DNA of 64,000 bases from a virus: IMG/VR virus record IMGVR_UViG_3300033485_000002, positions 96,001 through 160,000 of that record; one strand, written 5' to 3'. Positions 1-30,099 of this stretch are shown piece after piece (the stretch's first letter is position 1; each line of letters begins with the position of its first letter). The notes beneath the pieces are model-generated. The model was not told the origin of the DNA and searched no databases. It saw nothing but the letters and a program-made list of their open reading frames with translations. Made by a program: the position numbers and the translations under genes.

Positions 1-1
1 C

Positions 2-259
2 GTGACCAACCTGCTGGCCGCTGCTGGCCTGATGCGGGGTATTGGTGGTTGGCGTCCGCAGAAGGGGGCTGGTGACTTCGGGCAGTTCACGCTCGTTGAC
101 CAGGACAACCCCGAGTTCTTGGACATCGTTGCCACTGGTGGGCGTGAGCCGCAGGATCTGGCGCTGGCCGATCCTGAGTGTTTCGATAGCGAGACGGTGA
201 ACATGCTGTCGTGGTTCATGGCGGAAACCAAGCGGCGTGGTCTCAAGGTTGTGAGCTAG
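2..259 (+). CDS. 5'-truncated RAMP/Cas7-like protein (C-terminal G-rich loop); putative effector of the adjacent pentamer array (Vipr-like)
   Basis: Open from window edge; LLAAAGLMRGIGGWRPQKGAGDFGQF resembles the RAMP glycine-rich loop (GIGxWRPxxxGxFGxF); two genes upstream of the array. Confidence 0.7.
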   Translation: MTNLLAAAGLMRGIGGWRPQKGAGDFGQFTLVDQDNPEFLDIVATGGREPQDLALADPECFDSETVNMLSWFMAETKRRGLKVVS

Positions 260-267
260 GAGGAATA

Positions 268-747
268 ATGGAACACGAGCGGACGAAGATCATTCGGGAA
301 GAGCTGATCCGCCTTGAGAACTCGCTGGGGACGTTGACCCCGGACAAGGTGGTCGAAGCAGCTACTCCTGTGAAGAGTCCAATCCACCCTTGCTTCGATT
401 GGGACAATACCTCGGCAGGGCACAAGTACCGATTGGAGCAGGCGCGTGGTCTTATCCAGTCGGTGAAGTACCGGGTTACGACCGAGAAGAAGGTGTTTAC
501 GGTGGCTCGGTATGTGCGTGACCCGAGGGTGGACCCTCAAACGCAGGGGTATGTCTCGGTGCCGAAGCTGAAGGAAGATCCTGCTGCGGCCCTGAAGGCG
601 GTACAGTGGGAGTTTTCCAGAGTGCAGCAGGCACTGGAGCGTTTGGAGATCTTGGCCACGGTGCTGGAAGCCAAGTCGGTGGTTACGGCAGCCCGTAAGC
701 ACATGAAGCGGGTGCAGGCTAAGGTGGAAAAGTCTTTTGCGATCTAG
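268..747 (+). CDS. Conserved phage protein (LTPxxVVEAA...HxxFxWD...YRLxQAR family), accessory gene between RAMP-like gene and array
   Basis: AGGAGG SD then ATG at 268; LTPDKVVEAATPVKSPIHPCFDWDNTSAGHKYRLEQARGLI; stop at 747 abuts the array. Confidence 0.75.
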   Translation: MEHERTKIIREELIRLENSLGTLTPDKVVEAATPVKSPIHPCFDWDNTSAGHKYRLEQARGLIQSVKYRVTTEKKVFTVARYVRDPRVDPQTQGYVSVPKLKEDPAAALKAVQWEFSRVQQALERLEILATVLEAKSVVTAARKHMKRVQAKVEKSFAI

Positions 748-751
748 CCGA

Positions 752-1408
752 CATTGTCACGGTTTAGCTGTCAAGGTACGATCGGGATTGTTCGGGTTTG
801 TCAAGGAAAGTCAAGATCTGGCGCGGTCGGGTGAGGCTGTCGTGGTTCGGTCAGATCCGTTCAGGGATGTTAGGGAAAGATATGGTGTGTTCTGGTGGGG
901 GAAGATTCGGATGGGCAAGGTGAGGCTGTCCAGGTAAGGTTCGGTGGGATGGGGCGTGTTACGGCGACTTAGGGTTAGTCATGGGCAGGTTCGGCTGTCA
1001 CGGTATGGCACGTTAGTTTCGGGTTAGTCAAGGACGGGAACGGTGCGATCAGGTCTGATCCGGTCTGACTGTCACGGTACGTGTCGTAGGGTAGGAAAAG
1101 GCAAGGCTCAGCATGTTAGGGTTCGGTGAGGCTAGGCTGTCACGGTGTCGTGAGGATGGGACCGGCAGGGCCGGGTTCGTTGCTGGCGTGGCATATTTTG
1201 GCGGGGCTTGGCTGTCATGGTGATTTTTGCGTTCAGGCGTGATTGGGCCTGACAGGATTCGATTAGGCAGGGCCGGGTAAGGTTTGGCTGTCACGGTGGG
1301 ATATGGACGGATCCGGAAGGGAGAGATGCGTTCTGGCGGGGTCTGGTGGGGCTGGGTGAGACCGGGTGGGACGAGATTTGGTAAGATCCGGTCAGGTCTG
1401 ACTGGTAT
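752..1408 (+). ncRNA. Array of 8 putative gapped guide RNAs: tandem G-[GAT]-N + NN pentamers separated by a G(G/A)CTGTCAC-like linker (VIPR-type RNA array)
   Basis: Linkers at ~766, 835, 924, 993, 1067, 1135, 1210, 1286, degenerate at 1400; units of ~12-21 pentamers; in the 5 indel-free units 72 of 74 pentamers start with G and none has C at position 2; no credible ORF. Confidence 0.85.
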
Positions 1409-1411
1409 GTT

Positions 1412-1487
1412 GGGGGAGTAGCCCAACGGTAGAGGCGGAGGACTTAAAATCCTTTCAGTGTGGGTTCGAATCCCACCTTCCCCACCA
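1412..1487 (+). tRNA. tRNA-Leu(TAA), short variable loop, encoded CCA
   Basis: Acceptor GGGGGAG/CTTCCCC, anticodon arm GAGGA-CTTAAAA-TCCTT, T-loop GTTCGAAT, 3' ACCA. Confidence 0.93.
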
Positions 1488-1497
1488 ATGTGCTAAG

Positions 1498-1568
1498 GGG
1501 GGTATCACTCAGTGGCCGAGTAGCGGGCTTTTAACCCGCCTACCAGGGTTCGATTCCCTGTGCCCCCA
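1498..1568 (+). tRNA. tRNA-Lys(TTT)
   Basis: Acceptor GGGGGTA/TGCCCCC, anticodon arm GCGGG-CTTTTAA-CCCGC, T-loop GTTCGATT; no encoded CCA. Confidence 0.9.
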
Positions 1569-1582
1569 CTTTTGGAGCTAAT

Positions 1583-16158: not shown

Positions 16159-16209
16159 CCACCCCGGCCCCCCATATCACCAACACGGGGACCGGGGCCT
16201 TCTTTTTTT
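16159..16209 (+). terminator. Probable terminator hairpin before tRNA-Gln
   Basis: CCCCGG(C)CCC...GGGGACCGGGG followed by TCTTTTTTT. Confidence 0.5.
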
Positions 16210-16281
16210 AGGGGCATGGTGTAATCGGTAGCACGCAACACTTTGGATGTTGTGGTTGGGGTTCAAGTCCCTGTGCCCCTG
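16210..16281 (+). tRNA. tRNA-Gln(TTG)
   Basis: Acceptor AGGGGCA/TGCCCCT, anticodon arm CAACA-CTTTGGA-TGTTG, T-loop GTTCAAGT, G discriminator. Confidence 0.88.
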
Positions 16282-16310
16282 TTTCGGATTTAGTGTGGGG
16301 GTCTTTTACT

Positions 16311-27832: not shown

Positions 27833-28417
27833 GTGGCGCTAGTCTACCGAAACATCCTTGGCCCCATTGCAGGACCGGATGGGACGGTACTTGCATCGGG
27901 TGAGTTGCGCGTGAAGCCCCTTGCCCCAATCGTTGATGGCACCACCTTTATCTCACCGGATGAGCTGGTACTGTCGATTGTAGACGGGCTGTTTACGCTC
28001 ACGTTGGCCGCTCCTGCAAACTATGAGTTCCTGGTGATCGATCAGTACAATGAGACGCTATGGAACTTTCAGGCGGGGCTGAGCGGGGAGTCGGCAGCCG
28101 ACATTCGGTTGTCGGAATTGTACTTGCTGTCGGGGGTGGAAGTAGATGATGTTGTCGATCTTTCCTTTACTTTCCCCCAGCTTCTCGATGTTCCGGGGAC
28201 GTATGTCGATCAGGCTAATAAGCTGGTAAAGGTCAACGAGGCCGAAGACGGCTTGGTTTTTACGACGCCACTCCCAATTACAACTGGGAGTGGTAGCCCG
28301 GAAGGGGCTGTGACGGCTGCAATTGGTTCTCTGTTTTTGCGTCTTGATGGTGGTGTAGGTACAACTTTGTACGTCAAAGAATCCGGCACGGGGAATACCG
28401 GCTGGGCAGCTAAGTAG
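27833..28417 (+). CDS. Tail-fibre-associated protein (paralog of 33246 and N-terminus of 33876)
   Basis: GGAGG SD, GTG; C-terminal GSGSPEGAVTAAIGSLFLRLDGG.GTTLYVKESGTGNTGW. Confidence 0.75.
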   Translation: MALVYRNILGPIAGPDGTVLASGELRVKPLAPIVDGTTFISPDELVLSIVDGLFTLTLAAPANYEFLVIDQYNETLWNFQAGLSGESAADIRLSELYLLSGVEVDDVVDLSFTFPQLLDVPGTYVDQANKLVKVNEAEDGLVFTTPLPITTGSGSPEGAVTAAIGSLFLRLDGGVGTTLYVKESGTGNTGWAAK

Positions 28418-28428
28418 GAGGTTTTTCT

Positions 28429-30099
28429 ATGGCTATTGGTGACGACTTCAGCGTTTCTGTTGCTGGTGATATCCGGCACGTAAGCGGGGCAACAACTTAC
28501 ACGGTGCTAGAGTTGCACCGATGGCTCCAGAATCTTGCTGATGACCCGGCAGCTTCTGGCAATGATTATCTTGACATCACGAGTGCTACTCCGTCAGAGC
28601 GGTCAACGGATAACATTATTACGCTTAATAGCCCGTATAACATCGACGCGACCGCTGCCGAGTACCTCTACGACGGCTCGATCTCGCAGGGCGGTGGAGC
28701 CGAGATGTACAGCGGGCTGGTCGTCGTGGGATCGCTTGCTGGTACCACCACCCTCCAGGTGGTGCAGGACAACGCGCTCTATGACACCGACACTCCGTTC
28801 TGGGGCACTGGGCTGAATGCCGATGCCACTCAGAACATTCTGATGCGCTGTTTGATCCTGACCCGTACCGGAAGTGCCGACATCGACGGCAAGCGTATCC
28901 GTGTGTATGCCCGTGAATGGGGCGATACCTACGCGGAGTTCTCGGTGACCATGGGTCTCGGCAACTCGGTCGCGGCTATCTTCACCAACGATGACCTGAA
29001 CAACACCACTGGTTCAGGTACGGTTGCCACCTGGACCGAGATCACCAACGTCGAGGGTTACCAGACTATCGACCTGGGTAACGGCAACGGTGCCCGTCCG
29101 TACTACTCGCAGTGGAACAGGGCTTCTTACACCATCAATCAGCTCTATGAGCGTGCCAAGTACATTACTCGCCGTGGAACCAGTGAAACCATCCACGGGA
29201 TGGACGGAGAACTGTTCCGGGGCATCACGCACCAGTGGGCTTATGACGGAGAGACCGGTACTGCATTCGTTGAGGACGAGGAGCTGTCGTGGGGGACGGG
29301 TGCGACGGCTGGTACGGGCACGTTGCTCGCACTCAAGGATGATGGGAACGCCGGTACGGTGTGGATCCAGCTTCTTACCGGTGTTCCACCGACCGACGAT
29401 CTTGCCTTCGCGGGTGCTACCGCGCAAGCGGTGGTCAACGGCACTGTGACTTCCCGCTCCCTCCCGGCTGTGTTCATCGGGCAGTCCACGGGTTCAGCCA
29501 TCATCGGTGGTTTTGGTATCGGTATCGAATCGGGTGATCTGACCGTTAATGACAAGCTTTTCGACCTGACCAACACCCAGCAGACTCCTCCGAACAACGT
29601 CATCTTCTACGTGTACGGGTTAATCAGTGGTCAGGATCGTCTGTTGGTGACCAACGACAACGGTTCCGTGGGTATCGATACGGATCAGATGTTACTGGCT
29701 ACCACTTTGAACGGTGCCACTGAAACGTCAGTGGTTGTGGGTGCCGCGAGTATTCCGGCTGATACCCCCCAGACTGGTACACTTCGGATTGTGTTGGATG
29801 ATGGACGCCACCGAGCTGTTGCCTACACAGCGCACGATAGTGACGATACCTTCACCATTGCCAGTACTGACTTTACTGACCCGAACGACGCAACTGCCGG
29901 AAACGGTGTTTATATCGCGTACCTCGATAAGGAGGCAACGGCTGCGACCGAGTCGTTCACCGTGGTCTACTCCGCTCCCAGAACTCTGTTTGTACGGGTG
30001 CGTGACGGTGGTGCAACTCCAATCAAGACCTTCCAGACTACTGCTGGGTTAGGTGCTGGCGGTGGTTCGGCGACCGCGATTCGTACTCCGGATGCGTAA
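28429..30099 (+). CDS. Virion structural protein (556 aa, acidic beta-rich)
   Basis: AGGAGG SD; Thr/Gly/Asp-rich; tail cluster context. Confidence 0.75.
   Translation: MAIGDDFSVSVAGDIRHVSGATTYTVLELHRWLQNLADDPAASGNDYLDITSATPSERSTDNIITLNSPYNIDATAAEYLYDGSISQGGGAEMYSGLVVVGSLAGTTTLQVVQDNALYDTDTPFWGTGLNADATQNILMRCLILTRTGSADIDGKRIRVYAREWGDTYAEFSVTMGLGNSVAAIFTNDDLNNTTGSGTVATWTEITNVEGYQTIDLGNGNGARPYYSQWNRASYTINQLYERAKYITRRGTSETIHGMDGELFRGITHQWAYDGETGTAFVEDEELSWGTGATAGTGTLLALKDDGNAGTVWIQLLTGVPPTDDLAFAGATAQAVVNGTVTSRSLPAVFIGQSTGSAIIGGFGIGIESGDLTVNDKLFDLTNTQQTPPNNVIFYVYGLISGQDRLLVTNDNGSVGIDTDQMLLATTLNGATETSVVVGAASIPADTPQTGTLRIVLDDGRHRAVAYTAHDSDDTFTIASTDFTDPNDATAGNGVYIAYLDKEATAATESFTVVYSAPRTLFVRVRDGGATPIKTFQTTAGLGAGGGSATAIRTPDA

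What the first reader, a model, noticed from the sequence alone, without database searches (positions are those of the whole stretch)
1286..1404. Array unit 8 decodes to a tyrosine-integrase catalytic motif when every third target base is skipped
Seen: the variable dinucleotides at 1295-1399 are (AC) GG AT CG CC AG GA GC CT GG CT GG TG GA CG GG GA TT AA CC CA CT. Read as codon positions 1+2 they give (T)-G-[MI]-R-P-[SR]-[ED]-A-L-G-L-G-[WC]-[ED]-R-G-[DE]-[LF]-[NK]-P-[QH]-L, e.g. TGMRPSEALGLGW. Established: TGxRxxExxxLxW is the box I motif of tyrosine recombinases, containing the catalytic Arg. Inference: the guide addresses the most conserved part of an integrase gene of a competing prophage, satellite or ICE. 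The skipped base falls on the wobble position, so synonymous escape would be ineffective. The leading T comes from the conserved linker and is not independent evidence.
Basis: partly seen in the sequence, partly recalled or inferred. Interest (0 to 1): 0.96.

Follow-up and report, generated by a model that had tools for sequence, protein, structure and literature searches.

The report
Phage VIPR guide against tyrosine integrases
The last unit of this phage's five-base repeat array is a guide RNA of a VIPR system (a CRISPR-related DNA silencer first published in 2026). Its two-letter code does spell, codon by codon, the catalytic-arginine motif of a family of tyrosine integrases, so this is a sound new example of a known mechanism, not a new mechanism.

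Summary
Observation confirmed.

The locus is a VIPR system. A 260-aa Cas7-fold Vipr gene straddles the window start, followed by a 159-aa accessory gene and an eight-unit vrRNA array (766-1411) that ends at a tRNA-Leu gene. The gapped code, with one target base skipped and aligned to the wobble position, and the targeting of a recombinase active site are already in three 2026 bioRxiv preprints. The mechanism is therefore known.

The target call holds:
- The first 10 dinucleotides of unit 8, searched as an exact gapped pattern, gave 22 hits in three collections. Nearly all lie in frame on box I of PF00589 integrases. Two shuffled patterns gave none.
- One Gemmatimonadales integrase matches the first 13 dinucleotides 26/26.
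- Units 6 and 7, read antisense, independently hit the same family's LGH and Y/HxxR motifs (88% and 82% of read bases).
- Only the 1-nt skip works.

No full-length target at 80% or more was found for unit 8 (best 73-79%), so the targeted element and the host remain unknown. The scan has already reported VIPR arrays, some aimed at integrases, on other genomes.

The parts
1..259 (+). 3' end (last 86 codons) of the vipr gene. The full 260-aa gene runs from 523 nt upstream of the window (L001:2477-3259) = P0002.
   Evidence: AF2 model pLDDT 93.7. Foldseek top PDB hits are all Cas7-type RAMPs (Csm3, type VII Cas7, Cmr4, Cas7-11), prob 1.0, E about 4e-6. The family profile A1 hits the published SUSP1 vipr gene (NC_028808 28474-29061) at E 1.1e-9. 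The family has 1560 representatives.
268..747 (+). vap-like accessory gene, 159 aa (P0001)
   Evidence: It has the same position, between vipr and the array, as the 153-162-aa genes in related loci L017, L018 and L020 and as vap1 in SUSP1. Similarity to SUSP1 vap1 is weak (23% over 88 aa, pairwise E 6e-4). No Pfam or PADLOC family; phrog_15946, function unknown.
754..782 (+). promoter-like site at the head of the array (TTGTCA-17-TACGAT, 9/12); weak
   Evidence: L001 3754-3782. A better site (10/12) lies just upstream of vipr, outside the window (L001 2428-2456). These are consensus matches only.
766..1285 (+). vrRNA units 1-7. Each has a 9-nt handle, (G/A)(G/A)CTGTC plus 2 nt, starting at 766, 835, 924, 993, 1067, 1135 and 1210, followed by 9-16 pentamers.
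   Evidence: Unit 6 (1135-1209) and unit 7 (1210-1285), read antisense, match the LGH and Y/HxxR motifs of the same integrase family.
1286..1294 (+). handle of unit 8
1295..1411 (+). unit 8 guide tract: 22 regular pentamers (1295-1404), one degenerate pentamer and 2 nt. The first 13 dinucleotides (1298-1359) are the box I-matching core.
1412..1487 (+). tRNA-Leu(TAA) directly abutting the array. Its RNase P site would set the 3' end of unit 8 (inference).
1498..1569 (+). tRNA-Lys(TTT)

Best explanation
Window 766-1411 is the guide-RNA (vrRNA) array of a phage-borne VIPR system, encoded downstream of its Cas7-fold Vipr gene and a small accessory gene.

Proposed mechanism, following the published VIPR work:
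- The array is transcribed on the + strand and cut into eight vrRNAs.
- Vipr protomers bind one G-led triplet each and present the two following bases.
- These dinucleotides pair with double-stranded target DNA while every third target base is flipped out.
- Binding represses transcription.

Unit 8 is written in the sense of the coding strand, so it would pair with the template strand. It reads codon positions 1-2 across box I (the catalytic-Arg motif) of a tyrosine integrase of the PF14659+PF00589 family. Units 7 and 6 are written antisense and read the Y/HxxR box and the LGH box of the same family. The likely biological effect is to silence the integrase of a rival integrative element (prophage, satellite or ICE) in the host, so that it cannot excise or integrate and cannot escape by synonymous mutation.

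Shown here: the array anatomy, the RAMP fold and its kinship to the published Vipr, the in-frame matches above shuffled background, and that only a 1-nt skip works. Inferred: transcription and processing, Vipr binding, repression, and the identity of the target element.
For: Anatomy.
Vipr identity: Cas7 fold; profile hit to SUSP1 vipr, whose flanks show the published GGY-NN arrays. In one search, the actinophage homologues found are flanked by GGC-NN arrays. In some searches, homologues at 52-56% identity have the same vipr-vap-array layout with 9-nt handles.
Unit 8 target: 22 exact hits of the 10-dinucleotide pattern, almost all in frame on box I of PF00589 genes, against 0 and 0 hits for shuffled patterns. 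L009 matches the first 13 dinucleotides 26/26. Shuffle tests.
Units 6 and 7 on the same genes, at the right places and on the opposite strand. Best matches are 23/26 and 23/28 read bases.
A 64-aa string of decoded motifs retrieved only PF00589 proteins from 5.8 billion (27 of 27).
Skip rule: only the 1-nt skip beats shuffles for units 6, 7 and 8.
No self-target and no integrase over the Pfam cut-off in the phage genome.
Mechanism and precedent: bioRxiv 10.64898/2026.04.26.720920, 10.64898/2026.04.26.720927, 10.64898/2026.10.15.759431.
Against: - No sequence matching the whole of unit 8 at 80% or more of read bases was found. The best are 35/48, or 33/42 without handle bases (L035). The second half of the unit fits the family only loosely.
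- Unit 8 has 22-24 repeats, more than the 9-16 described for vrRNAs.
- The constant triplet is relaxed (G, then G/A/T, then T/C/A) and there is no long 3' tail with a pseudoknot. The biochemistry shown for type II systems is therefore assumed, not demonstrated, for this clade.
- No expression data exist.
- The integrase set was reached through a unit 8 hit, so one search is partly circular for unit 8. It is not circular for units 6 and 7, and one search is free of this for unit 8.
Confidence: 0.85

Rival explanations
1. Unit 8 is not one guide. Only its first 13 or so repeats address integrase box I. The remaining 9-11 repeats are a second guide without a recognisable handle, a degenerate remnant, or a 3' tail that is trimmed when the tRNA is processed.
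For: The perfect run in L009 stops after dinucleotide 13. The first 13 alone reach 81% in the independent set, while the full unit reaches only 67%. Published vrRNAs have 9-16 repeats. The second half alone is not significant anywhere (14/16 outside an integrase gene; 15 of 300 shuffles do as well).
Against: No handle or phase break separates the halves. In L009 the second half still has 3 of 8 dinucleotides perfect in the same reading frame. Its decoded acidic and Leu/Phe positions fall where the family has D and L/F after the Trp. This fits a single guide against a family member not in the databases.
Confidence: 0.25
2. The integrase reading is a chance resemblance produced by the degenerate decoding and by looking through many motifs.
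For: Matching only the five canonical positions (G, R, E, L, W) would not be very rare. By my estimate from the array's own base composition it is about 1e-5 per position, over roughly 250 windows, times the many motifs a reader might recognise.
Against: 0 of 3000 and 0 of 300 shuffles reach the observed fit. Shuffled patterns find nothing where the real one finds integrases. Two other units hit other motifs of the same gene family on the expected strand and at the expected spacing.
Confidence: 0.02
3. The tract is not a guide. It is an RNA or DNA scaffold for a multimeric protein that recognises the periodic triplets (as TRAP binds GAG/UAG repeats, or CsrA sponges), or a DNA-level iteron or packaging signal. 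The two-base spacers would carry no information.
For: The 5-nt period, a triplet plus a 2-nt spacer, is formally the TRAP-site layout. This was my first reading.
Against: The spacers carry information: they match coding sequence in frame. The adjacent protein is a Cas7-fold RAMP related to Vipr, not a TRAP or CsrA-like protein. No Rfam family matches.
Confidence: 0.03
4. The guides address integrases, but the purpose is not to block a parasite's excision. It could be, for example, blocking integration of co-infecting temperate phages, or manipulating a resident prophage or ICE of the host to the phage's benefit.
For: Family members in IMG/VR often sit at the ends of 30-60 kb viral contigs, as prophage integrases do. 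One member lies in a small integrase / HTH_17 / Toprim-primase island, as in satellites. The nearest solved structure is the Tn1549 conjugative-transposon integrase. All three element types therefore remain possible.
Against: Nothing discriminates between them here. The only experimental precedent is satellite immobilisation.
Confidence: 0.3

Closest known systems
Type II VIPR of Escherichia phage SUSP1 (NC_028808: vipr 28474-29061, vap1 28031-28471, vrRNA1-4); bioRxiv 10.64898/2026.04.26.720920, .720927, 10.64898/2026.10.15.759431
   Same: Gene order vipr, small accessory gene, vrRNA array. RAMP fold. Pentamers of a G-led constant triplet plus two free bases. 1-nt skip code with the skipped base on the wobble position. 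Guides on either strand. A recombinase catalytic core as target. Phage-borne.
   Different: Vipr here is 260 aa against 195 aa, and is related only at profile level (E 1e-9 over about 50 residues). The triplet is relaxed to G-(G/A/T)-(T/C/A) instead of GGY. A 9-nt handle lies between units instead of a tail of about 40 nt with a pseudoknot. There are eight guides in one array, the last with 22-24 repeats and abutting a tRNA. The target is a tyrosine integrase (Arg box, Y/HxxR, LGH), not a serine recombinase, and three guides cover one gene family.
Unnamed Vipr homologues with GGC-NN arrays in actinophages (Mycobacterium phage Mattes gp52, Gordonia phage Pipp gp42) and in metagenomic contigs L017, L018, L020
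   Same: Same protein family (27-29% identity to the phages, 52-56% to the metagenomic ones). Arrays lie next to the gene. The metagenomic loci share the vipr / 153-162-aa gene / array layout and the 9-nt phase-shifting handles.
   Different: Different handles and dinucleotides. Their decoded units show no obvious integrase motifs by eye (not tested further). No tRNA at the array end.
Class 1 CRISPR backbone proteins (Cas7: Csm3, Cmr4, type VII Cas7, Cas7-11)
   Same: Best structural matches of the Vipr model. Both form a filament on a guide RNA with periodic disruption of the guide-target duplex.
   Different: No CRISPR repeats, no other cas genes and no adaptation module in the region examined. 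Period of 5 nt on the guide and 3 nt on the target, instead of 6 and 6.
TRAP bound to (G/U)AG-NN repeats in the Bacillus trp leader
   Same: Triplets spaced by two bases, so a period of 5.
   Different: There the spacers carry no information and the protein is an 11-mer beta-wheel. Here the spacers encode a target and the protein is a RAMP. This was considered and rejected.

Membership tests
VIPR system | Vipr protein: a minimal RAMP (RRM core, G-rich loop, thumb) encoded next to the RNA | tested here: met
   AF2 pLDDT 93.7. Foldseek: Cas7-type RAMPs, prob 1.0. Invariant Gly-rich block G184/G188/G190 in the family alignment. Profile hit to SUSP1 vipr at E 1.1e-9.
VIPR system | vrRNA made of tandem pentamers: conserved GGY (or a related consensus) alternating with hypervariable NN | tested here: met
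   124 pentamers: position 1 is G in 92%, position 2 is G 56% / A 20% / T 20%, position 3 is T/C in 82%, positions 4-5 near-uniform. This is a relaxed consensus. The paper allows NNNGG, YNNNG and NNNNG variants.
VIPR system | 9-16 repeats per vrRNA capped by a conserved 3' tail (pseudoknot in the SUSP1 clade) | tested here: not met
   Units 1-7 have about 9-16 repeats, but unit 8 has 22-24. Only a 9-nt handle separates units and no 40-nt tail is present. This defines type II rather than VIPR as a whole: the paper describes other array architectures, including staggered arrays, which I could not compare because the figures are not held.
VIPR system | Targets follow the 1-nt skip rule (NNx) | tested here: met
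   Skips of 0, 2 and 3 nt stay at shuffle level. A skip of 1 gives 22/26, 22/28 and 33/42 for units 6, 7 and 8.
VIPR system | Natural target with at least 80% of NN bases matched and no gaps (criterion of the paper) | tested here: inconclusive
   Met for unit 6 (23/26, L062), unit 7 (23/28, L041) and the first 13 dinucleotides of unit 8 (26/26 in L009; 21/26 in L038). Not met for full-length unit 8 (best 33/42 = 79%, or 35/48 = 73% with handle bases)..
VIPR system | Accessory vap gene | tested here: inconclusive
   A 159-aa gene lies in the vap position, and the synteny is conserved. Similarity to SUSP1 vap1 is weak (E 6e-4). It has no family name.
VIPR system | vrRNAs are expressed, bound by Vipr, and repress matching DNA | not testable with these tools
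   No RNA or biochemical data are available for this uncultivated phage.
Target: tyrosine recombinase (PF00589), box I | The matched codons lie in a PF00589 gene, in frame, on the motif that contains the first catalytic Arg | tested here: met
   Nine of 10 tested open frames carrying the pattern are over the PF00589 cut-off. L009's integrase P0003 carries PF14659, PF22022 and PF00589. Its box I aligns with box I of the Tn1549 integrase 6EN0, and its Y-x-x-R-H, G-H-S and Tyr motifs align with the corresponding motifs there. Which Arg is catalytic is taken from established knowledge of the family.

The most novel reading that the evidence does not exclude
The array is built as a broad-spectrum weapon. 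Three guides are written against family-invariant codons (the Arg box, the family-specific Y-D-L-R-H box and the LGH box) of one widespread class of tyrosine integrases. A single lytic phage could then immobilise many unrelated prophages, satellites or ICEs at once. This clade would also represent a distinct VIPR architecture: 9-nt handles, no pseudoknot tail, a relaxed triplet, and a last guide of more than 20 repeats whose 3' end is made by tRNA processing.
Probability: 0.3. Interest if true: 0.55.

Novelty: new member of a known kind. Interest (0 to 1): 0.4.

Why it matters
It extends a finding so far shown experimentally for one E. coli phage: VIPR guides aimed at the catalytic core of a rival element's recombinase, in wobble register. 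The extension is to a distant Vipr clade, an uncultivated 168-kb phage, and the other great recombinase superfamily (tyrosine rather than serine). Three guides tile one catalytic domain. This supports the view that silencing integrases is a general strategy in conflicts between mobile elements. It also gives a concrete, testable guide-target pair for a VIPR clade that differs from the characterised type II in triplet consensus and RNA architecture. It does not reveal a new mechanism.

Tried and rejected
- First reading, a TRAP- or CsrA-like protein-binding repeat: dropped once the spacers proved informative and the neighbouring protein proved to be a RAMP.
- Rfam: no family for the array.
- DNA similarity of the first 8 kb to known phages: only the tRNA matches.
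- PHROGs on ten large ORFs: only a portal and a tail-fibre-like protein, so no host clue.
- Relatives cannot be drawn for a virus record.
- Exact 12- and 13-dinucleotide patterns of unit 8: none in viral contigs or metagenome contigs.
- Exact 10-dinucleotide patterns for unit 6 antisense, unit 7 antisense and the second half of unit 8: none in viral contigs.
- Full 21-dinucleotide pattern with up to 3 mismatches: none in the 401 Gemmatimonadota genomes searched.
- Self-targeting: all eight units are at shuffle level on the phage's own 168 kb. The phage has no integrase over the Pfam cut-off; one 13.8-bit fragment only.
- Units 1, 2, 3 and 5 show no signal against this integrase family.
- Unit 4 fits the K-T-x-x-S-x-R hairpin motif only marginally at protein level (148 of 3000 shuffles do as well), and not at DNA level.
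- Supplementary tables of the VIPR paper are not held, so the VIPR type of this locus could not be assigned.

Full report
WHAT IS THERE. The window is bases 96001-160000 of a single 168,260-bp IMG/VR virus record (GC 52.5%, CheckV completeness 77%). Positions 747-1411 are non-coding and G-rich on the + strand, with a strict 5-nt period. Over 124 pentamers, position 1 is G in 92%. Position 2 is G 56% / A 20% / T 20%. Position 3 is T or C in 82%. Positions 4 and 5 are close to uniform. Eight 9-nt handles start at 766, 835, 924, 993, 1067, 1135, 1210 and 1286. Each shifts the phase by one base and divides the tract into eight units.

Unit 8 (1286-1411) is the longest. After its handle come 22 regular pentamers (1295-1404): G 22/22, G/A 21/22, non-G 22/22. 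One degenerate pentamer and two bases follow, then tRNA-Leu(TAA) starts at 1412, followed by tRNA-Lys(TTT).

WHAT KIND OF THING IT IS. My first guess was a protein-binding repeat of the TRAP kind. Earlier notes of this scan on the same stretch used the word VIPR, and the paper library holds three 2026 preprints on it. Viral Interference Programmable Repeat systems consist of a minimal RAMP protein (Vipr), an accessory gene (vap) and vrRNAs made of GGY/NN pentamers. The NN bases pair with double-stranded DNA while one target base per repeat is skipped. In natural targets the skipped base falls overwhelmingly on the codon wobble position, and binding represses transcription.

The locus fits:
- Just upstream of the array lie a 260-aa gene (window -523 to 259; P0002) and a 159-aa gene (268-747; P0001).
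- P0002 folds with pLDDT 93.7, and its best PDB matches are all Cas7-type RAMPs at probability 1.0.
- It belongs to a family of 1560 representatives at 50% clustering.
- A profile of that family hits the published SUSP1 vipr gene at E 1.1e-9. The flanks of that gene show the published GGY-NN arrays.
- Named homologues in Mycobacterium phage Mattes and Gordonia phage Pipp are flanked by GGC-NN arrays.
- Metagenomic homologues at 52-56% identity have the same vipr / small gene / array layout with 9-nt handles.
- P0001 resembles SUSP1 vap1 only weakly.

IS THE INTEGRASE READING REAL? I ran four independent lines.

(1) Pattern scans. The first ten dinucleotides of unit 8, written as an exact NNx pattern, gave 8 hits in one-genome-per-species contigs, 4 in IMG/VR and 10 in JGI metagenomes. 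These are 15 distinct sequences. In 12 the pattern lies in frame in an integrase gene, on the motif G-M/I-R-P-S-E-A-L-G-L. Ten of these are verified over the PF00589 cut-off. The other three are short or broken frames. Two seeded shuffles of the same ten dinucleotides found nothing in IMG/VR. The integrase of a Gemmatimonadales MAG (L009, P0003) matches the first 13 dinucleotides 26/26, including the unusual Gly before the Trp.

(2) Other units. In L009, and again in L027, L034 and L035, units 7 and 6 find their best matches on the opposite strand of the same gene, 110-145 codons downstream. These fall on the Y-D-L-R-H-T-C-A box and the P-K-x-x-x-E-R-L-G-H-S-T box. The Tyr in place of the first His of HxxR is invariant in this family, and unit 7 encodes it.

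(3) Shuffle statistics:
- Against 120 family members, unit 8 sense fits 15/24 (z 8.4). Unit 6 antisense fits 12/14 (z 9.0). Unit 7 antisense fits 11/15 (z 6.2). Each has 0 of 3000 shuffles as good. All wrong orientations, and units 1, 2, 3 and 5, sit at background.
- That set was reached through a unit 8 hit, so I repeated the test on 80 IMG/VR integrases retrieved with motifs that do not involve box I.
- There unit 8 still beats all 300 shuffles (28/42; first 13 dinucleotides 21/26), unit 6 reaches 23/26 (88%) and unit 7 reaches 23/28 (82%).

(4) A 64-residue string of the decoded motifs pulled only PF00589 proteins out of 5.8 billion (27 of 27).

Repeating the paper's own test, skips of 0, 2 or 3 bases give nothing, and only the 1-nt skip works. 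P0003 aligns with the solved Tn1549 integrase 6EN0. The alignment places the unit 8 footprint on box I with its Arg, unit 7 on HxxR and unit 6 on the second His region.

WHAT REMAINS OPEN. No sequence matches the whole of unit 8 at the 80% used in the literature. The best are L035 (35/48, or 33/42 without handle-derived bases) and L009 (34/48). Longer exact patterns, patterns for the second half, and a search of 401 Gemmatimonadota genomes with up to 3 mismatches all found nothing.

The second half of unit 8 keeps the reading frame of the family. In L009, 3 of 8 dinucleotides are perfect, with acidic and Leu/Phe positions where expected. I therefore favour one long guide against a family member that is not in the databases. 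A split or partly vestigial unit cannot be excluded.

The target element is unknown. Family members occur at prophage ends and in a small integrase / HTH_17 / primase island. Their nearest solved relative is a conjugative-transposon integrase. The phage has no integrase of its own over the cut-off, and no guide matches its own genome.

HOW IT MOST LIKELY WORKS. Inferred by homology with the characterised type II systems:
- The operon is transcribed from a promoter-like site upstream of vipr, and possibly a second one at 754-782.
- The precursor is cut at or near the handles, and the 3' end of unit 8 is made by RNase P at tRNA-Leu.
- Vipr polymerises on the G-led triplets.
- The filament invades integrase genes at three catalytic motifs, on both strands, and blocks their transcription.
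- A rival integrative element is thereby locked in place or prevented from establishing itself, and wobble-position mutations give it no escape.

COMPARISON AND NOVELTY. The code, the wobble register and the targeting of a recombinase active site are published. The third preprint shows SUSP1 VIPR silencing a satellite's serine recombinase next to its catalytic Ser. New here:
- a distant Vipr clade, related to SUSP1 Vipr only at profile level;
- a relaxed triplet;
- short handles instead of a pseudoknotted tail;
- a guide of more than 20 repeats ending at a tRNA;
- tyrosine integrases as the target, with three guides on one catalytic domain.

The words 'integrase' and 'tyrosine' do not occur in the target descriptions I read. 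This scan has already reported VIPR arrays on other genomes, two of them with integrase-directed guides. I class the finding as a new member of a known kind, of moderate interest.

Noticed in passing
G000:C1:70196-70264 (same phage, 25.7 kb upstream of the window start): A stand-alone vrRNA-like unit. A handle-like TTGTCAT is followed by 12 strict GGY-NN pentamers in an intergenic stretch, far from vipr. It has no match above shuffles in the phage's own genome, and its decoding is not obviously an integrase motif.
   Followed up: partly
window 1135-1209 (unit 6): One linker has 4 bases instead of 3 (an extra T after the eighth dinucleotide), yet the target register in integrase genes runs on without a gap. 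The extra base seems to be tolerated on the RNA side.
   Followed up: partly
window 1076-1090 and 1219-1232: Units 5 and 7 begin with irregular, out-of-phase stretches (including a T5 run in unit 7) before the regular pentamers resume. In all family members the first two dinucleotides of unit 7 do not match.
   Followed up: no
window 993-1066 (unit 4): The sense decoding resembles the K-T-x-x-S-x-R-x-x-x-L-P hairpin motif of the same integrases (8/14). This is only marginal at protein level (148 of 3000 shuffles) and at background at DNA level.
   Followed up: yes
window 766-992 and 1067-1134 (units 1, 2, 3, 5): No signal against the integrase family, so their targets are unknown. Unit 2 has a weak best hit (22/32; 10 of 300 shuffles) in L103.
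   Followed up: partly
L011:3159-3374 (Gordonia phage Pipp) and L012:2161-2367 (Mycobacterium phage Mattes): Clear GGC-NN arrays lie next to the Vipr homologues of cultured actinophages. In Pipp the array lies under an annotated 'hypothetical protein' CDS (gene 43), probably a mis-annotation. In Mattes each 12-repeat block (11 in the last) ends in GGCAG.
   Followed up: partly
L004:4025-4096 (Pseudomonas fulva NBRC 16637) and L024:3314-3385: The unit 8 pattern also occurs in an identical 24-codon open frame that looks like an isolated box I remnant, not a full integrase gene. Its meaning is unknown.
   Followed up: no
window 10077-48129: Eight of ten large ORFs tested have no PHROG family, and the first 8 kb of the window matches known phages only at its tRNA-Leu gene. 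This is a very poorly charted phage lineage. A third tRNA (Gln, TTG) lies at 16209-16282.
   Followed up: no
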